A DNA stretch of 34,845 nt from contig JAITIJ010000067.1 in the NCBI GenBank assembly GCA_031279495.1, positions 1 to 34,845 on the forward strand, read 5' to 3'. Each line of letters begins with the position of its first letter. Within the stretch, counting starts at the first letter, position 1. The notes under the pieces were generated by a model, which saw only the letters and a list, made by a program, of their open reading frames with translations, had not been told where the DNA came from and ran no database searches. This DNA is from Holosporales bacterium (GTDB lineage: Bacteria; Pseudomonadota; Alphaproteobacteria; UBA3830; JAIRMZ01). Below, one piece after another: positions 12,301 to 28,617 of the stretch. Position numbers and translations under genes: made by a program.

Positions 12301-13443
12301 ATGACGACGATCACGCTTAAAAATGTTACAAAAAGCGTCAAGGATCACATCATCATCGACGGTATTGGTTTGGTGATCACAGGAAATTCTTGCACAGCTT
12401 TGGTTGGTCCGTCTGGCTGCGGCAAATCTACACTTTTGCGTTTGATCTGTGGTCTTGAAGAGCCGACCACAGGAGAAATCTATATCGATGGCCAATGCGT
12501 GAATATGCGGCCCCCTGTAGAACGCGGCATCGCCATGGTGTTCCAATCCTATGCCCTGTACCCTCACATGACTGTATTTGACAATATGGCGTTCGCATTG
12601 AAGATTGCAGGATGTAGTAAGACCGACATTGCTCAACGAGTTCAACAGACCGCAAAAACTTTAAAAGTCGAGCACCTTCTGGATCGCAAACCTAAACAGC
12701 TTTCCGGAGGTCAGCGTCAACGCGTGGCGATAGGTCGCGCGATTGTACGACATCCTAAGGCCTTTCTTTTCGACGAGCCACTTTCTAATTTAGATGCCGC
12801 CCTAAGATCTGAAATGCGTTATGAACTCGCACGTCTTAAAGCTGATCTCAATACAACGATGGTGTATGTAACTCATGATCAAGAAGAAGCCATGACCCTA
12901 GCCGACACGATTGTGGTTATGCGTGATGGACGTGTTGAGCAGCAGGGTACACCTCTCGAGCTCTATCATCGTCCGAAAAATCTGTTTGTGGCGAGTTTTA
13001 TCGGCTCACCAACGATGAATTTTCTGCAGGCAACAGTTGATGCGTGGCAAGAAGACCACTGCCTACGCATTCGGTTTCGTTCTGATGAAACTCTTCTGGT
13101 GAAAGTGCCATTTGATGCCTTAGAAGGTAAGGAAGAGCTGTTTTCTGAAGGAAGCTCTCTTACAATTGGAGTTCGGCCGGAAAGTCTTGAAGAAGACGTA
13201 TCCTGCACTGATCAAGAAGGCGTCCGTTTGAACGGAACAGTATCCTTGGTTGAAAACTTCGGCAATGAAGCGTATGTGTACGTTACGTTGCAAAAAGGGG
13301 GGCACGTTAAAGTGCGTTTGGCTGGGAATTGTACTTATGAAGTTGGTCGTCGTATATCCCTCTTTCTTCCTCAATCAGATTGCCATATTTTTGACGCGAA
13401 CGGAGAAGCGGTGAGGCGTTTTAAAGAGGAATCTCTGTGTTAA
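12301..13443 (+). CDS. Sugar ABC transporter ATP-binding protein (MalK/ThuK-like)
   Basis: GPSGCGKST, VFQSYALYPHM, LSGGQRQR, DEPLSNLD, C-terminal TOBE-like region. Confidence 0.96.
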   Translation: MTTITLKNVTKSVKDHIIIDGIGLVITGNSCTALVGPSGCGKSTLLRLICGLEEPTTGEIYIDGQCVNMRPPVERGIAMVFQSYALYPHMTVFDNMAFALKIAGCSKTDIAQRVQQTAKTLKVEHLLDRKPKQLSGGQRQRVAIGRAIVRHPKAFLFDEPLSNLDAALRSEMRYELARLKADLNTTMVYVTHDQEEAMTLADTIVVMRDGRVEQQGTPLELYHRPKNLFVASFIGSPTMNFLQATVDAWQEDHCLRIRFRSDETLLVKVPFDALEGKEELFSEGSSLTIGVRPESLEEDVSCTDQEGVRLNGTVSLVENFGNEAYVYVTLQKGGHVKVRLAGNCTYEVGRRISLFLPQSDCHIFDANGEAVRRFKEESLC

Positions 13444-13880
13444 CTGTAAAAATCCTAAAAGCGGTGCCTGATACAACATATTTTCCAACCTGTGCAACGA
13501 GTGGAAGTGCAGGTATGGATCTTTATGCAGCTATAAACCAGCCTATCGACATTCCGTCGCAGGAGCGCCGTTTGGTGGGAAGTGGCATCGCGATTGCGCT
13601 TCCTGTTGGATTCGAAGCCCAGATTCGATCACGCTCTGGCCTGGCGAGCAATCATGGCGTCGTCGTTTTAAATGCGCCAGGCACTATCGATAGCGATTAT
13701 CGAGGAGAGATCAAGGTCATTCTCGCCAATTTTGGTGATAAAACTTTTACTATAGAGCCTGGCATGCGCATTGCCCAGATGGTTGTTGCGCGTTACGAAC
13801 AGGTGTTGTGGGATTTGGTATCCGATTTGCCAGATACGGAACGTGGGGCAAGCGGTATAGGATCCTCAGGTGGATTCTGA
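13437..13880 (+). CDS. dut: dUTP diphosphatase
   Basis: SAGMDL, RSGLA, GTIDSDYRGE, RIAQ, RGASGIGSSG. Confidence 0.98.
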   Translation: MLTVKILKAVPDTTYFPTCATSGSAGMDLYAAINQPIDIPSQERRLVGSGIAIALPVGFEAQIRSRSGLASNHGVVVLNAPGTIDSDYRGEIKVILANFGDKTFTIEPGMRIAQMVVARYEQVLWDLVSDLPDTERGASGIGSSGGF

Positions 13881-14541: not shown

Positions 14542-14973
14542 ATGGCGAAAAAAGTTGCAGGGTATATTAAGCTCCAGGTGCCAGCGGGAAAGGCAAATCC
14601 TTCGCCGCCTATCGGGCCGGCTTTGGGACAACGCGGGCTGAATATCATGGATTTTTGCAAAGCTTTTAATGCTCAGACGCAGAATTTTGAGCCGGGAACA
14701 CCTCTTCCCGTTGTCATTTCGGCATACGTAGACCGTACATTCTCGTTTATTGTCAAAACGCCACCGGTAAGCTTTTTCTTGAAGAAGGCCGCAGGTATCG
14801 AGAAAGGTTCAAAGACAGCAGGTCGCGGAGGATTTATTGGAAAAGTAACGATGGCACAAGTTCGAGAAATTGCAGAAAAGAAAAAACAGGATCTGAATGC
14901 GTGGGACACCGAAGCTGCAGCGCAGATGGTCAAAGGCTCTGCGCGCTCTATGGGTCTTGAGGTTGTGGGGTAA
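14542..14973 (+). CDS. rplK: 50S ribosomal protein L11
   Basis: [23 protein letters not shown]. Confidence 0.99.
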
Positions 14974-14974
14974 C

Positions 14975-15664
14975 ATGATCGGGAAGCGCCTTCGAAATAT
15001 CCTCAAGGACTTCGATCAAGAAAAATGCTATGCGTTGAAGGAAGCAGTGTCTTTCTTAAAGAAAGTATCTTCGGTGCACTTTGACGAAACGCTGGAAGTG
15101 GCAATTAATCTAAATATCGATTCTCGTAAAGCCGACCAGAATGTGCGAGGCATGGTTTCTATGCCTCATGGAACTGGTAAGATGGTACGTGTTGCAGTAT
15201 TTTGCAAGGGGCCAAAGATCGAAGAAGCGCTTGTGGCAGGAGCAGATCTCGCGGGTGCCGAAGATCTAGCCGAGAAAATTCAAGAAAGCATAGACTTCGA
15301 TGTGTGCATTGCAACACCAGATATGATGGGTGTTGTTGGACGCCTTGGAAAGATTCTCGGTCCGAAGGGGCTAATGCCGAATCCAAAGCTAGGGACCGTG
15401 ACAGTGGATGTCGCAACAGCTGTGAAGAACGCCAAAAGCGGTCAGGTTGAGTTCCGTACAGAAAAAGCTGGTATAGTGCATGCTGGACTATGTAAACTCA
15501 GCTTCTCTCCCGAGAAAATCGAAGAAACTGTCAAAGCTTTCGTTGGCGCGGTTGTGCGTGCCCGTCCTTCTGGGATAAAAGGGAGCTATATAAGAAAGGT
15601 CTCGTTATCGACAACAATGGGGCCTGGTATAAAGCTAGATTTAGGAGAAGTGAACAGCTTTTAG
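14975..15664 (+). CDS. rplA: 50S ribosomal protein L1
   Basis: [33 protein letters not shown]; start reassigned to ATG 14975. Confidence 0.99.
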
Positions 15665-15680
15665 TGGTTTTAAAGGGCAT

Positions 15681-15884
15681 CTGTCAAAGACCGTCGGAGG
15701 AAAAACTTAAATGAGTTTCCTTCCTGAGGGATTCTGTACGAGGGAGCGCCGGAACAAAGTGGCAGGAAAGGTGTTTTGGGAAGCTTTCCCATCATCCTAA
15801 GGCTAAATTAGACTGAATGTTATTCAGTAGCCGCAACCCTCGAGTAGAGAAAAACCTGGAAGAAAGCTTGTCCGGCGCAGACGG
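15681..15884 (+). promoter_or_regulatory. L10 leader (rplJ autoregulatory RNA), atypically long
   Basis: 5' half CTGTC-AAAGACC-GTCGGA and 3' half TCCGGC-GCA-GACGG match the L10-leader pairing pattern; located between rplA and rplJ. Confidence 0.75.
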
Positions 15885-15963
15885 AGCGAGTAGCGCTCTG
15901 CACAATTGTTCTGCGTCTTTTTCGTATCCGGCAGGTTCTTTTAAAAAGGAGCATTAGGATATG

Positions 15964-16149
15964 TTATGGATCGTGAAGAAAGAGAGAAATTTGTTGAGAA
16001 ACTCGTGCCAGAAGGACAAAGGTGGCTTGCTACAAAGTAGCGATCTCTTCTTGTGCAGTTGCGTCTTTTCCTCATACATTCATCAGATCCGGTTAGGAAA
16101 AGCTAAGGCATATTATGGATCGTGAAGAGAAAAAGAAATTTGTTGAGAA
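15964..16149 (+). repeat. Diverged direct repeat duplicating the rplJ start region (period 149 bp)
   Basis: 15964-16000 vs 16113-16149: 34/37 nt identical. Confidence 0.9.
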
Positions 16150-16627
16150 GATCCAACGCCAATTAGTGAATGGCGATTTGTTGGTCGTTTTGCATCAGAA
16201 AGGCCTCACGGTCGCAGAGGTGACTGATCTGCGCGCGCAGATGCGAGCTGAAGGGGCCTCTTATCTTGTTTCGAAAAACACACTTGCGCGTTTGGCGGTG
16301 AAAGATACGGCATTCTCTGGCGTTACAGACTTTCTGGAGGGGCCAACAGCGCTGGCGTTTTCTCCTTCGCCGGTTTCCATGGCAAAAGTGCTTTTTAATT
16401 ACGCAAAAACGCAAGGAGGGAAATTAGCAATCGTTGGGGGAAGCTATGAAGGGCGTACTCTCTCTTGTGCAGAGCTGGAAATGCTGTCACGCCTGCCCTC
16501 CATGGAAGCCTTGCGCGCAAAAATTATTGCTGTTATTCAAACGCCGATGCAGCGTGTGGCAGCAATACTCCAGGCTCCCGCTGAGCAACTTGCTCGCGTG
16601 ATGAATGCCTATGCCCAAAAAACATAA
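16115..16627 (+). CDS. rplJ: 50S ribosomal protein L10
   Basis: GLTVAEVTDLR, KNTLARLA, GPTALAFS, LPS. Confidence 0.98.
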   Translation: MDREEKKKFVEKIQRQLVNGDLLVVLHQKGLTVAEVTDLRAQMRAEGASYLVSKNTLARLAVKDTAFSGVTDFLEGPTALAFSPSPVSMAKVLFNYAKTQGGKLAIVGGSYEGRTLSCAELEMLSRLPSMEALRAKIIAVIQTPMQRVAAILQAPAEQLARVMNAYAQKT

Positions 16628-16674
16628 AGGAGATGTTCGTGTTTAGAGTGGTTATTGGATAAGGGAAAAAGAAA

Positions 16675-17061
16675 ATGAGTGAAAATCTGCAAAAAATTGT
16701 TGATACGCTTTCGAAATTGACGGTAATGGAAGCTGCCGAACTTAGTAAAATGTTGGAAGAGACTTGGGGCGTTTCTGCTGCTGCTCCCGTTGCAGTTGCG
16801 GCGGTGGCAGCACCTGGTGATAACGCTGCGGCTCCTGCAGTTGAAGAAAAGACATCGTTCGACGTTGTCCTGACGGATGCAGGTGCTACGAAAATCAACG
16901 TTATCAAAGCTGTTCGCGAGATTACAGGGTTAGCCTTAACTGAGTCCAAGGCTCTTGTCGAATCGCCGCCAAAACCCGTTAAGGAGGGTGTCGCGAAAGA
17001 CGAGGCGGAGAAGATAAAGGCAAAGCTTGAAGCTGCTGGGGCAAAAGTTGAGCTTAAGTAA
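16675..17061 (+). CDS. rplL: 50S ribosomal protein L7/L12
   Basis: LTVMEAAEL, Ala-rich hinge, [22 protein letters not shown]. Confidence 0.99.
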
Positions 17062-17931: not shown

Positions 17932-20900
17932 GTGAAGTTGGCTGAGCGATCATTCACAGAGAGGAAGCGGTTTCGGAAAAGTTTCGGCAAAATAACCGAA
18001 ACCCTTGCACTTCCTGATCTTATAGAGTTGCAGCGTTCGTCTTATGAGGCTTTTTTGCAGCTCAAAGTTTTGCCTGCAGAACGCACCTCATCTGGATTGC
18101 AAGGAGTCTTTGCAGCAGCATTTCCAGTTAAGGATTTCTCAGGACATGCGCAAGTTGACTTCTGCTATTACGAATTCGATGAGACTAAATACGACGAGGA
18201 GGAATGCCGTCAGAAAGGCCTTACGTATGCAGCTCCTCTGCGCACTACTTTTCGCCTAATCGTTTGGGATGTCGACGACGATACAGGAGCAAAAACAATC
18301 CGCGACATCAAAGAACAAGCGGTCTACATGGGTGATATGCCACTTATGACACGCAGCGGAACGTTTATTGTCAATGGCATTGAACGCGTCGTCGTCTCGC
18401 AGATGCAGCGCTCCCCCGGTGTTTCTTTTGATCACGACAAAGGTAAAACACATTCCTCAGGAAAATTACTCTTTTCAGCTCATATTGTGCCGTACCGAGG
18501 CTCATGGCTCGATTTTGAGTTCGACGCCAAAGATCACCTTTATGTTCGCATAGATCGCAAGCGCAAAGTTTTGGCAACGACATTCCTCATGGCTCTTGAT
18601 AGTGCGCAAACAGAAGCACTCCGTATTGAGCGCGAAAAAGACGGTAAAGCTGTTAAATATTCTGAGGTCACAGGCATGTCACGCGAAGAGATTTTGCGTG
18701 CTTTCTATAATGTCGTGATTTACTCTAAGACAAAAAAAGGAGATTGGCAGCGCGCTTACACGCCTGCGGAATGGCAATCAGTTAAGATCTCGCGAGATTT
18801 GGTCGATGCAAGCTCTGGACAGGTTATCGCGAAAGCGGGAACAAAATTCACGAGCCGTTTGGCCCAAAAATTATACGACGAAGGGCTTCGCAAGGTTCGC
18901 ATTCTACCAGAAGAACTGGTCGGCGCGTATGTCGCTGATGATTTTATCGACGAATCCAACGGCCTTGTGCTTATTGATGCGGGAGCGGAACTGACAGAAG
19001 AGCTTCTCCATGTTTTCGAAGAAAATGGAGGGAAAGAGCTTGCAACCCTTGCAATTGATCGCCTTAACACAGGTGCGTATATACGCGATACGCTTAATAT
19101 AGATAAAAATAATTCTCGCGAAGAAGCTTTGTTCGAAATATATCGTGTACTCCGTCCGGGAGAGCCACCCACTGTTGATGGTGCGGCCGAACTCTTTCGC
19201 AGTCTTTTTTTTGATCAAGAGCGTTATGATCTGTCTGCGGTTGGACGTGTAAAGCTAAATGTTCGCCTTGAGAAAGACACGCAAGATGATTTGCGGACCC
19301 TTACAAAAGACGACGTCTTGAGGATTCTTAAAATACTGCATGAGTTAAAAGACGGGCGTGGAGAAATCGATGATATCGACAACTTGGGCAATCGTCGTGT
19401 TCGTTCAGTCGGGGAACTACTTGAAAATCAGTTCCGGATAGGGCTCTCTCGAATGGAACGTTCTATTCGAGAGCGCATGGGGTCTCCTGATGTTGGAAAC
19501 GCGATGCCTAACGATATTATCAACGCGAAACCTGTCAGCGTTGCCATCCGCGAGTTTTTTACTTCTTCGCAGTTGTCTCAATTTATGGATCAGACTAATC
19601 CATTAGCTGAGATTACTCACAAACGACGATTGTCTGCGTTAGGGTCCGGAGGACTAACTCGCGAGCGAGCTGGGTTCGAGGTGCGCGATGTGCACCCCAC
19701 GCACTACGGCCGTATTTGCCCGATTGAGACACCAGAAGGTCCTAACATCGGTTTGATCAACTCTTTGGCAACTTTCGCACGCGTTAATAAATATGGGTTC
19801 ATTGAGTCTCCGTATCGCAAAGTTGTCAATGGTCGCGTTACAGATGAGATCATATATCTTTCTGCTATGGAGGAAGCGCGACATACCATTGCGCAAGCTA
19901 ATGCTGCACAAGATGCTAAGGGCTGTTTTACTGATGAATTCGTCATTTGTCGCCAGAAGGGAGAAACGATTAATGCGCCGCGCGATGCGATCACTCTAGT
20001 CGATGTTTCTACTAAGCAAGTTGTTTCTGTTGCCGCCTCTCTCATTCCATTTCTTGAAAACGATGACACAAGCCGAGCTTTAATGGGGTCCAACATGCAG
20101 CGCCAATCTGTCTCGCTGTTGCGCACAGAGGCACCATTAGTTGGTACCGGCATGGAGAGTGTTGTTGCGCGTGATTCTGGGGTTGTTGTGGTTGCTAAAC
20201 GCGATGGTGTGGTGGACCAAGTAGATGCGCAACGCATCGTGGTCCGCACCTTTGAGGAATCGGATGACACAACTGTCGGTGTTGATATCTATAATCTGCG
20301 GAAATTCGAGCGTTCGAATCAAAGTACGTGTATTAACCAAAAGCCGCTTGTGCGTTGCGGAGATACCGTCAAGGCGGGTGACATTATTGCCGATGGTCCT
20401 TCTACACAACTTGGAGAGCTTGCTCTTGGACAAAATATGTTAGTTGCATTCATGTTGTGGAACGGCTACGGCTTTGAAGATGCGATTCTTCTCTCAGAGC
20501 GTGTTGTGCGCGATGACCTATTTACTTCTATCCACATTGAGGAATTCGAAGTCATGGCACGTGACACGAAGCTCGGCAACGAAGAGATTACACGTGATGT
20601 GCCCAATGTTGGCGATGAAGGGCTGCGTCATCTTGATGAAGCCGGGATTGTGCATGTCGGTGCCGAGGTTCAAGCTGGAGATATCCTGGTCGGCAAAGTA
20701 ACTCCCAAAGGCGAGTCACCGATGACCCCGGAAGAAAAGCTTCTTCGCGCAATTTTTGGTGAACGTGCTTCAGATGTACGCGATTCCTCGCTGCGTATCC
20801 CGCCAGGAGTCTATGGCACCGTTGTCGATGTGAAGGTCTTCACACGTCGCGGAGTTGAAAAGGACGAGCGCGCTTTAGCAGTCGAGAAAGCAGAAATCGA

Positions 20901-22188
20901 TGCACTGACAAAAGATTGTGATGCTGAGCGCAGTATTCTAGAACGCAGTTTTTATGCACAAATGGAAAAGTTGTTAATCGGCCAAATCGTTGCCAATGGT
21001 CCGAAAGGAGTTACTGCTGGTAGTAAAATAAACGCCAGTGTCCTAGCAGGGCTCTCAAAAGGTCAATGGCGTCAAATCGTCGTTGAAGATGCTAAAGTTA
21101 TGCTTAGAATAGAGGATCTGCAAAAACGGTTTGATAAAGGTGTGGAGCATCTGCGCAGGTGGTTTGACAACAAGGTCGAGAAGGTCCGGCGTGGAGATGA
21201 TTTGATGCCCGGCGTTCTTAAAATGGTCAAGGTCTTTGTCGCAGTGAAGCGAAAGATTCAACCGGGGGACAAAGTTGCGGGTCGACACGGAAACAAGGGT
21301 GTTGTTTCGCGCATCTTGCCAATTGAAGATATGCCGCATCTCGAAGATGGTACTCCTGTGGACATAGTGCTGAATCCGTTAGGCGTGCCCTCTCGTATGA
21401 ACATCGGGCAAATTCTGGAGACGCATCTTGGATGGGCCTCACATGCCCTTGGAGAGCGCGTACGCTCAATTCTATCCAATATGGGCAGTGCCAAAAAAGA
21501 TATAGGAGCCTTACGTCAAGAGCTTAAAGAGATTTTTGGCTCATCTGAAGATTGTACAGATATCGATGCATTGGGTGATTACGAAATGGTCGAGCTTGCT
21601 ACGCATCTAACGCGTGGCATTCCTATGGCAACCCCTGTGTTTGATGGCGCGCATGAGGACGACATCGTCGAGCATCTTAAAAAAGCTGGGCTGGATCCCT
21701 CTGGCCAAGTTACACTCTACGACGGTCGAACTGGAGAACCCTTCGATCGCAAGGTGACTGTGGGCTATATTTATATGTTAAAACTCGATCATATGATCGA
21801 TGATAAATTGCACGCGCGTTCTATCGGTCCTTACAGCCTTGTGACGCAACAACCATTGGGGGGCAAGGCGCAGTTTGGTGGTCAACGATTCGGAGAGATG
21901 GAAGTTTGGGCGCTGCAGGCTTATGGTGCTTCTTACACATTGCAGGAAATGTTGACAGTGAAGTCTGACGATATCACAGGTCGCATCAAGGCTTATGAAG
22001 CTATTGTACGGGGGGATGAGAATATTGAGTGTGGTATTCCGGAATCTTTTCGGGTTCTTGTCAAGGAACTGCATTCTCTAGCACTAAATGTCGAGTTCCA
22101 TCAACATACATTGCCAGAAGCGGAAAAATCCTCGGAACCAACCCCTGAATCTGTTTTTGGAAACGCACCAGCAGAGCAGCACATTTAG
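17932..22188 (+). CDS. rpoB: RNA polymerase beta subunit
   Basis: [41 protein letters not shown]; AAGGAG upstream of GTG. Confidence 0.99.
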
Positions 22189-22203: not shown

Positions 22204-25200
22204 ATGGTAGATCGATTCCAGCGGATTTTTGGTCAAGCAGCCAATCCTGATGATTTTGATGCCATTCGGATTTCTCTCGCAAGTCCAGAGAGAATTCGCT
22301 CTTGGTCTTTCGGTGAAGTGAAAAAACCAGAAACGATTAACTACCGTACGTTCAAACCCGAACGTGACGGATTGTTTTGTGCGCGCATTTTTGGCCCGAC
22401 GAAGGACTACGAGTGCCTTTGTGGCAAATATAAACGCATGAAATATCGTGGTGTGGTATGCGAAAAATGTGGCGTTGAGGTGACGCTTTCAAAGGTTAGG
22501 CGCGAACGTATGGGGCATATCGAACTCGCTGCTCCTGTTGCCCATATTTGGTTCACGAAATCTGTACCCAGCCGAGTTGCTCTGCTGCTTGATATGCCTA
22601 TGCAAGATATGGAGCGTGTCCTGTATTTCGAGAACTTCGTCGTAACCGAGCCAGGTTTAACACCATTTAGTCTTTATCAGCTTCTGACAGAAGATGAATA
22701 CTTACGAGCGCAAGATGAATACGGTGAAGACGCTTTCAGCGCCAGCATCGGTGCAGAGGCGCTACGAACGATGCTGCTTTCTTTGGATCTTAACGAAACT
22801 GCTGCTCACCTACGCACAGAGCTGGTGGAAACTAATTCCGAAATGCGACGTCGGCGCATTGTTAAGCGCTTGAAACTCGTTGAGTCGTTTTTGCAGTCGC
22901 ATTCTCGTCCGGAATGGATGATTCTCAGCTGTATTCCTGTTATTCCACCAGAATTACGACCTCTTGTACCTCTTGATGGTGGGCGATTTGCCACGTCTGA
23001 TCTTAACGATTTGTACCGACGTGTTATTAACCGCAATAACCGTCTTAAGCGTTTGATCGAGCTCCGTGCTCCCGATATCATCGTTCGCAACGAGAAGAGA
23101 ATGTTGCAAGAATCCGTCGATGCTCTGTTCGACAATGGACGCCGCGGCAGGGTTATCACAGGAACCAATCGACGGCCACTTAAGTCTTTATCGGATATGC
23201 TCAAAGGGAAGCAAGGGCGATTCCGCCAGAACCTACTCGGAAAGCGCGTCGACTATTCCGGCCGCAGTGTCATCGTTGTAGGCCCGAAACTTAAATTACA
23301 TCAATGCGGTTTGCCGAAGCGCATGGCGTTGGAGCTTTTTAAGCCTTTTGTTTATTCGCGCTTAGAACGCTACGGACTTGCGAGCACGCTAAAAGCTGCT
23401 AAGCGTATGGTAGAAAAAGAGCATCCTGGTGTTTGGGATGTCTTAGAAGAAGTTATTCGCGAGCATCCGGTCTTATTGAACCGCGCTCCGACTCTACATA
23501 GGCTGGGCATCCAAGCTTTTGAGCCGATGCTTATCGAGGGGAAAGCCATTCAGCTCCATCCGCTGGTTTGTACTGCTTTCGGTGCTGACTTTGATGGCGA
23601 CCAAATGGCAGTTCACGTACCACTTTCGTTAGAAGCGCAGCTAGAAGCGCGCGTCCTGATGATGTCGACGAATAATATTCTTAGTCCTGCAAACGGTCGA
23701 CCGATTATTGTGCCAACCAAAGATGTTGTGTTGGGTCTCTATTACCTTACTAGCGAACGTGAGAAAGCGCTGGGAGAAGGCATGGTGTTCAGTTCCATTG
23801 GCGAAATTGAGCACGCCTTGCATGAAAGAGCCGTCAGTTTGCAAGCGCGCATCGCAGCTCGTTGCGAGGAGTATCAGCCAGATGGCTCAATTAAACGTGT
23901 GCGCGTTCAGACGACTCCTGGTCGCATGCTGTTGTCCACAATTATGCCGAAAGGGCCGCATATTCCATTCCGCGCCATCAATAGGCAACTCACCAGCAAG
24001 GACGTAATAGGGCTCGTTGGACAGGTCTATCAGCATTATGGTCAGAAAGAGACCGTTCTTTTTGCTGATCATATGGTTCAACTTAGCTTTAAGGCCGTGA
24101 CAGAGTCTGGAATCTCATTCGGCAAAGATGACCTAGTCATTCCGCAAGAAAAGCAGAAGATCATCGCTAAAACGCGCGCAAAAGTAGCCGAATATGAGCA
24201 GCAATATCTAGATGGTCTAATTACACAAGGCGAAAAATACAACAAAGTGGTTGATGCATGGACACAATGCAACGAGGCGGTGTCAGAAGTTATGATGAAG
24301 CGCATTTCTACGGTTAAGCCAGGGGAATACGAGAACGCGATCTACACGATGGCACACTCTGGAGCCCGTGGTTCAGCTACTCAAATGCGGCAAATCATCG
24401 GTATGCGTGGTTTGATGGCTAAATCCTCAGGTCAGATCGTTGAAACTCCAATTACCTCTAATTTCAAAGAGGGATTAACGGTGCTTGAATACTTCACCTC
24501 TGCCCACGGTGCTCGTAAAGGTCTTGCAGATACAGCGCTAAAAACAGCGAATTCTGGATATTTGACACGGCGCTTGGTTGATGTGGCGCTGGATTGTGTC
24601 GTTTCCATCGAAGATTGCGGAACATCGCATGGCATTACCTTGAAAGAGGTAATGGAAGACGGAGAAATCACCGTTCCTTTGTCGGTGCGGGCTTTGGGCC
24701 GTACGGTTGCAGAGGATATCGTGGACAGAACCACAGAAAAAGTGATCATCACGCGAGACACCATGATCGACGAGGCATTATTGCCAGTTCTTGAGGCTGC
24801 TGGAATCACTGAGATCAAGGTCCGATCTGCTTTAACCTGCGAAGCCAAGATTGGGGTCTGCGCTAAATGTTATGGACGTGATTTGGCCAAAAGCCGTCCG
24901 GTTAATGTCGGAGAAGCTGTTGGCGTTATTGCGGCACAGTCGATTGGTGAGCCTGGAACGCAGTTGACTCTACACACTTTCCACGTCGGAGGTGCGGCGC
25001 AAGGTAGCTCAAAACAATCCTCTACTGAAGCTTCTCTAGATGCGACTGTCTCTATTCGCAATCGGAATGTGGTAGAAGACACCTCCGGTCGCAAGATTGT
25101 AATGGGACGTCATGTGGAGGTTGTCTTGAAAGATGCCCGCGGACGTGAACGCGCGAGCTATAAACCGCCATATGGCGCCACCTTGCGCGTGGATGATGAC

Positions 25201-26340
25201 GACAAGGTGACTAAGGGGCAATGCTTAGCAGAATGGGATCCGTATACGCTACCGCTTATTGCAGAGCGCGGTGGACGTGCGCAGTTTCTAGACCTCATTG
25301 AAGGAGTTTCTTTACGCGAGGCGACAGATGAAACGACAGGTATCACCACGCGCGTTGTAATGGATTGGCGTCAGCAAGCACATACCGCAGATCTTAGACC
25401 GCGTATTGTGTTGTGTGATGAAAGCGGAGCACCGCTTACTCTCGCGAATGGTCAAGAGATCCGGTATTTCTTGGCGGCGGATGCGACACTAAATGTCAAC
25501 AATGGAGACGAGATTCATGTTGGTGATGTTCTTGCACGCATTCCACAAGAGGCTAGCAAAACACGCGATATCACAGGCGGTTTGCCACGTGTCTCTGAGC
25601 TTTTTGAGGCGCGGAAACCAAAAGATTGTGCGGTGATCAGCGAATATGATGGTCATATTGAGTTCGGCAAAGACTATAAAGGCAAGCGCCGTATTATCCT
25701 ACGGCCACATGACGAATCTTTGCCTCCGGTCGAATATCTTGCCCCCAAATGGCGCTATGTTGCGGTGCAGGAAGGCGATGTTGTGAGCAAAGGAGAAGTC
25801 TTGATTGATGGCAATCCTGTTCCGCATGATATTTTGCAAGTTCTTGGCGTAGAAGCGCTTGCAGATCACTTGGTCAACGAGATCCAAGCCGTCTATCGGC
25901 TTCAGGGTGTTAAAATCGACGACAAACACATCGAGATCATCGTATGCCAGATGCTGCAAAAAGTTGAGGTCACCGACCCAGGTGACACGATGCTGCTAAA
26001 TGGCGAAACGGTTGATCATGATGAATTCGAGGAGATGAACGAGCATATTCGTCAACGCGGTGGCAAATTGGCGAAAGCAAAACCCATCTTGCAAGGAATT
26101 ACCAAGGCGTCCTTGCAGACTAAGTCCTTCCTTTCTGCAGCTGCGTTCCAAGAAACAACGCGTGTGCTGGCCGAAGTGGCTGTTAGCAGCAAATCAGATC
26201 ATTTGGCCGGCCTCAAGGAGAACGTTATCGTTGGCCGCTTGATTCCTGTTGGAACAGGGGCTTCTATCGCGCGGTACAAGTCTATGGCTGCCCTTCGAGA
26301 CACGGAATCTCTCAGCAAAGAAAGGGCAGCTGTTGCTTAA
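22204..26340 (+). CDS. rpoC: RNA polymerase beta' subunit
   Basis: Zn finger, [21 protein letters not shown], bridge helix [14 protein letters not shown], trigger loop [11 protein letters not shown]. Confidence 0.99.
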
Positions 26341-26903
26341 GAAGAGGCAGCAGTCGAGAGAATGAGAAAAAATGGAAAGAAGTGCGCAAAGGGTGTGTGG
26401 TGGAATTCTCAATGACCCGTTCTTTGGTCGGTTTTTTTACTTGGGAAGCGTGAGCACATCTGAGGTGCAATCTGAAACATAACTTCGGTTAGACGAGAAG
26501 AACTTTCGTAATAATATCAAGACTATTTGGAATCGCGTTGCAGACCCTGTTTCAGAGCACGCAATGTCATCTAGTCGGCTAACAAAATTCCTGAGAATGA
26601 AAGCGGATTGCTATTTAATTGTACATTTAGCAAACAATGGGTAGGAGCATCGCACACATTAAAGGGAATGAGTCTCCTTTTTTTTCACTGCAACTCTCTT
26701 GCCTCATTTGACATGCGGTCTAGCGTTATTTCCTTTTAGATGAGGCGCGAAAGATGTCTCATAAGACTTGGCTATGACAAGTTAGAGTCTACAGTTTTTC
26801 TAGTTTCTGCACGAGCTTTTAAAGAAAAGACGAAATACGGAAAGCTCGTTTCTGTATAGAGAATGGGGCCTCTGTGAAGGCAATGGCCCATTGTTTAGAA
26901 GGT

Positions 26904-27113
26904 TTATAGAGCTGCTTGAACCTGGCGCGTCAGCTCGACCAATTCTGGATCTTGGATGCCATGCTCGATCACAACCTTTGCTGCGGTTTGACGTGTTTCA
27001 GGATCTGGATTCTCTAATTGTTCTCGCAAAACATCCGTCGGTGGATGCATCGCTTCTGCATAAAAAGTTGCCAGTGCGGCGATTGATGTTAGTAGTTTAC
27101 AAGTGTTGTTCAT
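26904..27113 (-). CDS. Small exported protein with one HEAT-like repeat
   Basis: MNNTCKLLTSIAALATFYAEA signal peptide (AEA cleavage motif); LREQLENPDPETRQTAA HEAT-like motif; GGAG SD and consensus promoter upstream. Confidence 0.7.
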   Translation of the reverse strand: MNNTCKLLTSIAALATFYAEAMHPPTDVLREQLENPDPETRQTAAKVVIEHGIQDPELVELTRQVQAAL

Positions 27114-27143
27114 TTTCACTCTCCATTTTTTGAACATGAGGGA

Positions 27144-27174
27144 AGTATATCACGTCCCCCCCCCTATTTGTCAA
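27144..27174 (-). promoter_or_regulatory. sigma70 promoter with poly-G9 in the spacer
   Basis: Minus strand TTGACA-aata-GGGGGGGGG-acgTGa-TATACT (19-nt spacer, extended -10 TGn). Confidence 0.75.
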
Positions 27175-27445
27175 GTTTCTGGAGAAGGTTTTTGCAATCT
27201 TATTGCCTCTTCTTGAAGTTGTTGCACAACCGACCTGCTGCACAGAAACAAGTAAGGCAAGAAAAGAAGGGAGGGGGTGAGCTTTGATTTTGTTTTGCTT
27301 GCAACGTAATTGAACGAATGGGAAGAGCATACGAGTCTTTCTGAATGGAATAGAGAATCTTCTTACTCCGTCCATTCACCTCTCACAACAAGTCCAATCT
27401 CATACAAATCCCCACTCCCCAGTATACCCAGTTCTCTTGCAGGAA

Positions 27446-27474
27446 TTGACACCAAGGAGATCACTCGATACAAC
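27446..27474 (+). promoter_or_regulatory. sigma70-type promoter of tRNA-Ser
   Basis: TTGACA-N17-TACAAC ending 8 nt before the tRNA. Confidence 0.65.
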
Positions 27475-27482
27475 CGACGCCA

Positions 27483-27573
27483 GGATGGGTGGCCGAGCGG
27501 TCGAAGGCGCACGCCTGGAAAGTGTGTATGCGGTTCTCCCGCATCGTGGGTTCGAATCCCACCCCATCCGCCA
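27483..27573 (+). tRNA. tRNA-Ser, anticodon GGA
   Basis: GGATGGG/CCCATCC acceptor stem, CACGC-CT-GGA-AA-GTGTG anticodon arm, long variable arm, TTCGAAT, G73, CCA. Confidence 0.97.
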
Positions 27574-27933
27574 GAAAACGCTTTTCTAAGCAGATTCTTA
27601 TCAAAAAATCGCAACCTCTATCCTTTGAGGATTATCAGAAATGTTTTCATCTATGGTGGTTTCAGAAAAACAAAGACCAACGATCCTGCAGAGTTCTTAT
27701 GGCGCGTCATGACCTTTTAAAAGACTCGTTCCATTCTCTTCAGTATTAAGTCCTCCGCAAAAGTAGAGGAGAAAGAGAATATAAAGGAATTGCTTGTCTT
27801 CTCAGCAAGGCCCTATCAGTCTTCTTTTGTTGGTAAAACTCTACATGTGCTACTTTAATTGATGGACCAACTTCGCTGCCTTGTTGTATCCTTTGTTTAT
27901 TCAGTAAAGGCTCACTATTCTTCGCAGCAAACA

Positions 27934-28617
27934 CTACAGATTCCACAGAGATTCTTTCATGCCTGCGCAAAAAGCTTTGTGCGCAACGATTTCTTCTTGA
28001 GTTGGTGCAAATACCCGGTGTGGATATTTCTTAACAAAAGCAGTACCAGCAACTTTTTGCTGATTTGAGCTTTCAAGAGCAAGCCCTGCTTGTTTGCCAC
28101 CCATAAGATACAGGTACACTTCGGCTAGCAACGTGCAGTCTAACAAAGCCCCGTGTAAGGTGCGCTGCGAGCTATCCACGTTAAAACGCCGACACAACGC
28201 ATCTAGACTCGCAGGTGCTCCAGGAAACAGGCGGCGCGCCAAAGAAAGCGTATCGATAACACGATCGGTTCTTAACGGCGGCTTATCAAGACGTGCGAGC
28301 TCTGCATTTAAAAATCTTATATCGAATGAAGCGTTGTGAATAACCAGTTGATCTTCAGCAATAAAATCCAGAAAATCCTCAGCAATCTGCTCAAATAAAG
28401 GAAAGTCCTTCAGAAAAGCGTACGTCAAACCTGTGACAGCCGAGGCCTCAGGATGCACTTCTCGCTGTGGATTAATGTATGTATGGAACGTTCTTCCTGT
28501 TGGCACAAAGTTATAAATCTCCACACAGCCGATTTCTACAACGCGATCCCCGTTCTTTGAGTCTAAGCCTGTTGTTTCTGTATCTAAAACAATTTTCCTA
28601 TGCACATTAACACTCAC
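27934..28617 (-). CDS. dnaQ: DNA polymerase III epsilon subunit
   Basis: LDTETTGL, HNASFD, HGALLD, GGKQAGL. Confidence 0.97.
   Translation of the reverse strand: MSVNVHRKIVLDTETTGLDSKNGDRVVEIGCVEIYNFVPTGRTFHTYINPQREVHPEASAVTGLTYAFLKDFPLFEQIAEDFLDFIAEDQLVIHNASFDIRFLNAELARLDKPPLRTDRVIDTLSLARRLFPGAPASLDALCRRFNVDSSQRTLHGALLDCTLLAEVYLYLMGGKQAGLALESSNQQKVAGTAFVKKYPHRVFAPTQEEIVAHKAFCAGMKESLWNL

What the first reader, a model, noticed from the sequence alone, without database searches (positions are those of the whole stretch)
23560..23610. RNA polymerase catalytic motif reads GADFDGD instead of NADFDGD
Seen: TGT ACT GCT TTC GGT GCT GAC TTT GAT GGC GAC = [11 protein letters not shown], with Gly at 23581-23583. 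Asn->Gly needs two base changes, so a single miscall is unlikely. The three Mg-binding Asp residues and R425 (LNRAP) are intact. Known: NADFDGD is near-invariant in cellular multisubunit RNAPs, and E. coli beta' N458 contacts the substrate ribose and helps discriminate NTP from dNTP. The deviations I know of are in plant Pol IV/V and some viral enzymes. Inference: the housekeeping RNAP may have altered sugar selectivity, fidelity or inhibitor sensitivity.
Basis: partly seen in the sequence, partly recalled or inferred. Interest (0 to 1): 0.87.

Follow-up and report, generated by a model that had tools for sequence, protein, structure and literature searches.

The report
RNA polymerase active-site Asn-to-Gly variant
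The only RNA polymerase gene found in a small-genome termite-gut symbiont really has glycine where almost all bacteria have asparagine in the catalytic loop, but the same swap occurs in scattered other bacteria, so it is an uncommon tolerated variant, not a unique one.

Summary
Codon 23581-23583 is GGT in an intact 1378-aa rpoC, giving [11 protein letters not shown]. It aligns with E. coli beta' N458. An independent Logan contig of one run reproduces the stretch with 0 differences at depth 8.9. Raw reads were not available. The gene follows rplKAJL-rpoB and holds the only DFDGD site in the 956-kb, 90%-complete Holosporales MAG.

All 29 relatives read have Asn, and only this genome of 58 in the order deviates. 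One other family member, a metagenome protein, also has Gly. The tree requires two separate changes.

Gly is not unique. A truncated scan of species genomes gave 100 intact GADFDGD RpoCs in Chloroflexota, Patescibacteria, Armatimonadota and some Clostridia. It is rare within phyla: 6 of 186 Chloroflexota and 0 of 125 Patescibacteria.

All four family members also carry trigger-loop M932L and R933H/Q. Three of the five residues that hold the nucleotide in the substrate site are therefore changed here.

The functional effect is untested. Published N458S data suggest a modest one. Interest is moderate.

The parts
22204..26340 (+). rpoC, RNA polymerase beta' subunit, 1378 aa, intact
   Evidence: ORF. 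TIGR02386 scores 1731 bits against a cut-off of 963.5. It is the only match in the own genome.
23581..23583 (+). GGT = Gly460, at the position of E. coli beta' Asn458
   Evidence: Relatives have AAT/AAC. The Logan contig is identical.
23581..23601 (+). Catalytic loop GADFDGD with the three Mg-binding Asp intact
   Evidence: It is the only DFDGD[QE]M site in the genome.
23482..23484 (+). CGC = Arg427, at the position of E. coli beta' R425 (LLNRAP), unchanged
24943..24993 (+). Trigger-loop arm [18 protein letters not shown]923 and H924 stand for E. coli M932 and R933. Q920 (Q929) and H927 (H936) are kept.
   Evidence: Numbering comes (own 882-943 aligns with E. coli 891-952). All 4 family members have L plus H or Q, against M and R in at least 115 of 116 other homologues. 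A Logan contig covers 24803-26340 with 0 differences.
24385..24468 (+). Stretch [28 protein letters not shown]. The name 'F-loop region' is recalled. The family-wide changes are A732I and AKPSGEI to AKSSGQI.
   Evidence: In run X1 this stretch is covered only by record 7. No difference is listed here among the 40 rows shown, but 38 rows were not shown.
17932..22188 (+). rpoB, beta subunit, 1418 aa, directly upstream
   Evidence: TIGR02013 scores 1829 bits.
14542..17061 (+). rplK, rplA, rplJ and rplL upstream of rpoB (canonical operon context)

Best explanation
This is a real, fixed Asn-to-Gly replacement in the only RNA polymerase beta' gene found in an obligately intracellular, small-genome Holosporales bacterium from a termite gut. 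The enzyme is the working housekeeping polymerase. Loss of the Asn side chain removes one of the polar contacts that hold the ribose of the incoming NTP, or of the RNA 3' nucleotide, in the substrate site. R425 and Q929 remain, so NTP-over-dNTP selection should be largely kept (inferred). The expected effects are a looser hold on the nucleotide and some shift in translocation and cleavage balance, not a new specificity (inferred). The change arose in a family whose trigger loop had already lost M932 and R933, so the whole substrate site is remodelled. Gly is the usual alternative that bacteria tolerate at this position. It was most likely fixed as a nearly neutral or mildly compensated change in small symbiont populations (inferred).
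For: Shown:
- The codon and an intact ORF.
- An identical independent contig at depth 8.87.
- A single rpoC and a single DFDGD site in the genome, in operon context.
- A TLC nucleotide transporter and a 0.96-Mb genome. Closest named hits are Holosporales MAGs.
- Gly in 100 intact RpoCs among 119 loci of a truncated scan, in 27 upstream contexts, one shared by 22 species. Gly therefore persists through speciation.
- One site only in each of the 5 such genomes checked.
- A second Gly in the same family (P0004). The tree places it apart from the window's protein. At least 2 changes are needed, and the AU test rejects a Gly clade at p = 0.0002.
- The family shows many private changes at otherwise invariant RpoC columns: 7 in the window's protein and 4-10 in its kin, against 0 in most of the 120 sequences.

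Literature (passages read):
- N458S lowers GTP over 2'dGTP binding selectivity 4-fold, and R425 is the major determinant (PMC7862312).
- N458D disfavours the pre-translocated state (PMC3424550).
Against: - No enzyme was assayed, so 'modest effect' is extrapolated from N458S and N458D, not from Gly.
- Three of five substrate-site contacts are changed together, which could have a larger effect than any single change.
- Two separate Asn-to-Gly events, each needing two base changes, in a family of four could point to selection instead of drift.
- Support comes from one sample, at depth about 9, and from contigs, not raw reads.
- The assembly is 90% complete, so a second rpoC cannot be strictly excluded.
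- The same-genus genome G001 (59% complete) gave no rpoC match, so the state in the nearest relative is unknown.
Confidence: 0.6

Rival explanations
1. Compensatory coupling. The family first changed the trigger loop (M932L, R933H/Q). Asn-to-Gly was then selected, twice, because it restores the balance of nucleotide binding, translocation or cleavage in that altered site.
For: All 4 family members have the trigger-loop changes but only 2 have Gly, so the trigger-loop changes came first. Gly arose or toggled at least twice in this family and was not seen in 57 other genomes of the order. It was also not seen in 116, 74 and 118 other alphaproteobacterial-type RpoC sequences. Two Dehalococcoidia MAGs (L061, L114) combine Gly with LTLQTFH. 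N458 and M932/R933 act on the same nucleotide.
Against: Elsewhere Gly does not need trigger-loop changes. Of 77 Gly-bearing loci with the trigger loop in view, 53 have the canonical M and R. There are only two events in the family. Parallel changes are common there: 10 columns share the Gly pattern and 11 share the control pattern.
Confidence: 0.15
2. Adaptive change of specificity. The Gly enzyme would have materially altered sugar selectivity, fidelity or sensitivity to an inhibitor that binds the substrate site.
For: N458 contacts the ribose hydroxyls (PMC7862312). N458D and N458S change translocation and cleavage behaviour. The change recurs within the family. The organism imports nucleotides through a TLC transporter, so its pools may be unusual (inferred).
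Against: N458S changes 2'-dNTP selectivity less than 5-fold, and R425, which is intact here, is the main determinant. Gly lineages span free-living Chloroflexota and Armatimonadota of 3-4 Mb as well as symbionts, so there is no common ecology. No inhibitor link was tested.
Confidence: 0.12
3. Artefact. The cause would be a sequencing or assembly error, a minor population variant taken into the consensus, or a chimeric contig.
For: Only one run holds the sequence, at depth about 9, and raw reads were not seen. A second, related rpoC sequence is present in the same run (record 7).
Against: Two adjacent substitutions are involved. A different assembler gives a 5.9-kb contig with 0 differences over 1862 bases around the site. 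The ORF is intact. A separate metagenome protein of the same family also has Gly, and 100 other species have it.
Confidence: 0.05
4. Decaying or redundant gene. This rpoC would be losing function, and a canonical copy would lie in the unassembled 10% or be supplied otherwise.
For: The assembly is 90% complete. Many private changes occur at conserved columns.
Against: The gene is full-length with no stop and scores far above the family cut-off. It has canonical operon context. The Asp triad, R425, Q929 and H936 are kept. No other DFDGD site exists in 95 contigs. Relatives of 0.8-1.3 Mb mostly showed one rpoC match each. The two matches in G037 are two parts of the gene on two contigs.
Confidence: 0.03

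Closest known systems
Canonical bacterial RNA polymerase beta' (RpoC, TIGR02386), for example the E. coli and alphaproteobacterial enzymes with solved structures
   Same: Full-length match at 1731 bits. The best solved chains align without gaps around the catalytic loop and the trigger loop. The Asp triad, R425, Q929 and H936 are the same, and so is the operon context.
   Different: Gly replaces N458, Leu replaces M932 and His replaces R933. The three solved chains printed residue by residue all have Asn, Met and Arg at these places.
Engineered E. coli beta' N458S and N458D enzymes
   Same: The same residue is altered and the enzymes stay active in vitro. They bind the substrate-site nucleotide more loosely. 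N458S gives a 4-fold loss of binding selectivity and faster cleavage, and N458D gives less pre-translocated state (passages in PMC7862312, PMC3424550 and bioRxiv 10.1101/2024.06.20.599782).
   Different: Those are Ser and Asp, made in a wild-type background. Here Gly occurs naturally together with M932L/R933H. No N458G enzyme was found in the passages read.
Natural GADFDGD RpoCs of other bacteria found here (Chloroflexota including Limnocylindria, Chloroflexia and Dehalococcoidia; Patescibacteria; Armatimonadota; some Clostridia; Ca. Improbicoccus devescovinae)
   Same: They have the same Gly in an otherwise standard catalytic loop. In the 5 genomes checked it is the only site.
   Different: They belong to other phyla and arose independently. 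Of 77 with the trigger loop in view, 53 keep M932 and R933. No other proteobacterial RpoC with an intact Gly context was seen. Loci titled 'Gammaproteobacteria' have Patescibacteria-type contexts, and that reading of the contexts is mine.
Plant Pol IV/V and some viral multisubunit polymerases with deviant metal-binding loops
   Same: They deviate from NADFDGD.
   Different: Those are specialised extra polymerases alongside canonical ones. This is the sole housekeeping enzyme found. No comparison was run.

Membership tests
Bacterial RpoC (beta' subunit, TIGR02386) | Full-length match above the curated cut-off | tested here: met
   1731.3 bits against a cut-off of 963.5, over residues 20-1354.
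Bacterial RpoC (beta' subunit, TIGR02386) | Mg-binding Asp triad DFDGD | tested here: met
   GADFDGD at 23581-23601.
Bacterial RpoC (beta' subunit, TIGR02386) | Asn of NADFDGD (E. coli N458) | tested here: not met
   Gly (GGT) at 23581-23583. This is a conserved residue, not a condition of family membership: 100 other intact RpoCs have Gly.
Bacterial RpoC (beta' subunit, TIGR02386) | Substrate-site Arg (E. coli R425) and trigger-loop Q929 and H936 | tested here: met
   LLNRAP and [10 protein letters not shown].
Bacterial RpoC (beta' subunit, TIGR02386) | Trigger-loop M932 and R933 | tested here: not met
   Leu and His. The same holds in all 4 family members.
Housekeeping (sole) RNA polymerase of the cell | Single rpoC in the genome, next to rpoB and the rplKAJL genes | tested here: met
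   One protein match and one DFDGD site. Limit: the assembly is 90% complete.
Natural Gly458 variant RpoCs (a group defined here) | Gly at the N458 position in an otherwise intact catalytic loop of the only rpoC | tested here: met
Natural Gly458 variant RpoCs (a group defined here) | Active enzyme with defined kinetic properties | not testable with these tools

The most novel reading that the evidence does not exclude
In this symbiont family three of the five residues that hold the nucleotide in the substrate site are replaced (N458G, M932L, R933H/Q). Asn-to-Gly may have been selected repeatedly as a second-site adjustment to the altered trigger loop. That would give a housekeeping polymerase with a deliberately looser substrate site, with changed NTP affinity, translocation bias and proofreading. 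The same triple appears independently in two Dehalococcoidia.
Probability: 0.15. Interest if true: 0.6.

Novelty: new variant of a known kind. Interest (0 to 1): 0.4.

Why it matters
Papers on nucleotide selection describe beta' Asn458 as universally conserved (PMC7862312). Gly replaces it in the sole polymerase found in this symbiont and in at least 100 other bacterial species, and the string GADFDGD occurs in none of the papers searched. Natural Gly458 enzymes, and this family's combination with M932L/R933H, are ready-made test cases for how much each substrate-site contact contributes to NTP binding, sugar choice, translocation and cleavage. For the organism itself the finding is modest. 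It fits the accelerated protein evolution of a small-genome intracellular symbiont.

Tried and rejected
1. Gly as the normal state of whole phyla: rejected.
- In an even sample of Chloroflexota, 187 of 201 genomes had the site, and 7 of 201 had a non-A-first codon, all GGN. That is 6 of 186 apart from the seed genome G041.
- In Patescibacteria, 126 of 141 had the site, and all 125 apart from the seed G042 were AAY.

2. More family members.
- A metagenome scan with own residues 520-760 gave 80 loci, none closer than 63%. 74 had the site, all FN, and 6 lacked it.
- A search of shorter proteins gave 120 fragments. 118 had the site, all FN, and 2 lacked it. None belonged to the family.

3. Recombination between the two Gly lineages: rejected. 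Between residues 460 and 751, 14 columns support the tree, against 5 with the Gly pattern.

4. Second-site partners within the family: no signal. I508V, I746V and I751T follow the Gly pattern, but 10 columns do so overall, against 11 for the control pattern, mostly I/V.

5. Trigger-loop changes as a requirement for Gly: rejected (53 of 77 canonical).

6. Runs X2 and X3 hold next to none of the words. Only short pieces of other organisms' conserved stretches lay on the gene, so they give no evidence either way.

7. Tools and papers that gave nothing.
- Svetlov et al. 2004 (PMC3131404) is not held.
- The search 'NADFDGD' + 'asparagine' gave 4 papers, seen only as a listing, none on natural variants by title.

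8. Codons starting with A other than AAY (Ser AGY, Thr, Lys and others) were not covered by the species-genome scan. None appeared among the 150 listed Chloroflexota matches or the 126 Patescibacteria matches.

Full report
**1. Observation**

The window reads TGT ACT GCT TTC GGT GCT GAC TTT GAT GGC GAC at 23569-23601. This lies in the frame of an uninterrupted ORF, 22204-26340 (+), of 1378 aa. The protein matches the RpoC model TIGR02386 at 1731 bits against a cut-off of 963.5.

Own residues 400-480 align without gaps to residues 398-478 of E. coli beta' chains. Gly460 is therefore E. coli N458, and Arg427 in LLNRAP is R425. The three Asp residues are intact. The two closest relatives carry AAT and AAC at this codon, so two base changes separate them from GGT.

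**2. Reads**

One public run, X1 (termite gut metagenome), holds 0.95 of the sampled words of the gene. It is probably the sample from which the window was assembled.
- It is kept as Logan contigs, not raw reads.
- One contig of 5901 nt, depth 8.87, lies on 22204-24065 with 0 differences and 0 gaps.
- Another contig lies on 24803-26340 with 0 differences.

A second assembler therefore gives the same GGT. This rules out an assembler slip. It is not independent biological support, and no read pile-up was seen.

**3. Copy number, context and organism**

The window is the whole of contig C43 of a 955,695-base, 95-contig assembly, 90.1% complete.
- A protein search finds one rpoC.
- A pattern for DFDGD[QE]M finds one site.
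- Upstream lie rplK, rplA, rplJ, rplL and rpoB.
- The closest named proteins are from Holosporales MAGs, at 83% and 79% identity.
- The genome encodes a TLC nucleotide transporter, GreA and an NrdD-type reductase.
- No class I/II ribonucleotide reductase was found in the 90%-complete assembly.

This is the housekeeping polymerase of a small-genome intracellular bacterium.

**4. Relatives**

- Of 41 genomes searched (own included), 36 had an rpoC match. 30 loci were fetched, and all 29 relatives read FNADFDGD.
- A pattern search over all 58 genomes of the order found a codon not starting with A only in the window's genome. Many of those genomes are incomplete.
- Among the 120 best full-length proteins of the large protein collection (own included), 115 read FN, 3 read YN and 2 read FG. 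The two FG proteins are the window's protein and P0004.
- P0004 is a metagenome protein, 80% identical to the window's protein and 82% to P0005, which has Asn.

In a tree of 20 RpoCs the four family members form a clade (SH-aLRT 100). P0004 groups with P0005 (99) and the window's protein with P0003 (76). The Gly state needs at least 2 changes. A tree with the two Gly proteins held together is 64.6 log-likelihood units worse, with p-AU 0.0002. I had seen the free tree before running that test. The window's protein is a singleton cluster in that collection.

**5. Distribution elsewhere**

| Residue at the position | Loci |
|---|---|
| Gly | 101 |
| Ala | 8 |
| His | 3 |
| Val | 2 |
| Tyr | 2 |
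| X, Arg, Ser | 1 each |

- 100 of the Gly loci have an intact HP......G context. They fall into 27 different six-residue contexts. The largest, LVCEAF, is shared by 22 loci, which by title are mostly Limnocylindria or unclassified Chloroflexota.
- Seven of the 119 loci have no RpoC context upstream and are taken as frameshifts, N runs or chance: L056, L066, L068, L082, L091, L099 and L131 (a Gly locus).
- By record title, the hosts are Chloroflexota, Patescibacteria, Armatimonadota, some Clostridia, Ca. Improbicoccus devescovinae, an Aerophobetes MAG and a Dadabacteria MAG.
- Five such genomes each have exactly one site.

Within phyla the variant is rare.
- In an even sample of Chloroflexota, 187 of 201 genomes have the site and 7 carry GGN. 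That is 6 of 186 without the seed genome.
- That sample includes two genomes flagged unpublished, G083 and G218. Both have Asn. Without them the figure is 6 of 184.
- In Patescibacteria, 126 of 141 genomes have the site, and all 125 apart from the seed are AAY.

Gly is nonetheless a recurrent, heritable alternative and by far the commonest one among the codons scanned.

**6. The rest of the substrate site**

Own residues 882-943 align with E. coli 891-952.
- The trigger-loop arm reads [17 protein letters not shown], which gives M932L, R933H and I937V. Q929 and H936 are kept.
- All four family members have Leu plus His (Gln in P0003). At least 115 of 116 other homologues have Met and Arg.
- In the order, 25 Asn-bearing relatives read LTMRTFH and 2 read LTLRTFHI.
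- The family also shares A732I and AKSSGQI in place of AKPSGEI.
- The window's RpoC has 7 private changes at columns invariant in the other 119 sequences: E409G, Q796L, G897S, R1115Q, R1248C, T1323A and G1329S. Its kin have 4-10, and most sequences have 0.
- RpoB shows 27 such columns for the family, out of 453 invariant ones.

**7. Literature**

All of the following were read as passages found by term, not as whole papers.
- PMC7862312 calls R425, N458 and Q929 universally conserved. It reports that N458S lowers GTP over 2'dGTP selectivity 4-fold at binding and raises it 1.5-fold at incorporation. It states that earlier N458S work found less than a 5-fold loss, and it names R425 as the major determinant.
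[quoted passage not shown] It also reports that M932A raises the apparent tagetitoxin constant 5-fold.
[quoted passage not shown] It finds that N458S speeds intrinsic cleavage.
- 'GADFDGD' occurs in none of about 8.4 million held texts. Supplements were not open, and Svetlov et al. 2004 is not held.

**8. Reading**

Shown:
- a real codon in the only rpoC found;
- a variant that recurs in nature and persists in clades;
- a family background with two further substrate-site changes.

Inferred:
- The enzyme works, with a looser hold on the ribose and probably a shifted translocation and cleavage balance.
- Sugar choice is largely preserved by R425 and Q929.
- Fixation was by drift or mild compensation in a small symbiont population.

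The rivals are compensation for the trigger-loop changes, a true change of specificity, an artefact, and a decaying gene. They are weighed in their own sections.

**9. What did not help**

- No further family members were found in metagenome contigs or among short proteins.
- No recombination tract links the two Gly lineages.
- Parallel changes following the Gly pattern show no excess over the control pattern.
- Of 77 Gly lineages elsewhere with the trigger loop in view, 53 keep both M932 and R933.

**10. Limits**

- Support rests on one sample, contigs only, at depth about 9.
- The assembly is 90% complete.
- The species scan was truncated and blind to codons starting with A.
- The DNA of P0004 was not obtained, so its Gly codon is unknown.
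- E. coli residue numbers for the 732-751 stretch and for RpoB were not mapped by a call.

Noticed in passing
window 24943-24993 (and 24385-24468): The trigger loop reads [11 protein letters not shown] in place of QLTMRTFHIGG (E. coli M932L, R933H, I937V). The stretch before the bridge helix reads AKSSGQI in place of AKPSGEI. All four members of the family share these, not only the window's protein.
   Followed up: yes
window 19645-19647 (rpoB residue 572): RpoB reads [15 protein letters not shown]. The Ser is private to this genome, where 27 order relatives and both family members have Pro. By recall this is E. coli beta P564 in rifampicin cluster II. The numbering was not mapped by a call.
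   Followed up: no
window 24036-25132: In run X1 a 1097-nt Logan contig (depth 6.86) lies here with 84 differences, and the listed ones start at 24624. Bins 24136-24687 are covered by this contig alone. A second, related rpoC sequence therefore seems to be present in the same sample. Its state at the catalytic loop is unknown.
   Followed up: partly
L094 (Ca. Improbicoccus devescovinae, by record title): An unrelated bacterium of about 1.1 Mb also has GADFDGD as its only site. By recall it is a symbiont of a termite-gut protist. This may be coincidence.
   Followed up: partly
L061 and L114 (Dehalococcoidia MAGs): Both combine Gly at the N458 position with a trigger loop reading LTLQTFH. These are the same three replacements as in this family, with P0003's Gln at 933.
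   Followed up: no
own genome, contigs C85, C83, C48: A TLC-type nucleotide transporter is present. No class I/II ribonucleotide reductase large subunit was found in the 90%-complete assembly. The NrdD match carries one TAG inside it. greA is present.
   Followed up: partly
window 26341-28617: I expected rpsL-rpsG-fusA after rpoC (recalled gene order). About 1 kb has no ORF of 100 aa or more. An ORF at 27310-27720 has no NCBIfam match, and dnaQ lies on the minus strand at 27934-28617.
   Followed up: no
window 13437-13880 and 14897-15664: A dUTPase gene lies at 13437-13880, about 0.7 kb upstream of rplK. No nusG or secE match was seen among the ORFs tested. The rplA ORF as listed overlaps rplK by 77 bases, and its family match starts at residue 28, so the true start is probably later.
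   Followed up: no
L232 (G002) and L245 (G010): The rpoB matches of two relatives each contain one in-frame TAG. These were not examined.
   Followed up: no
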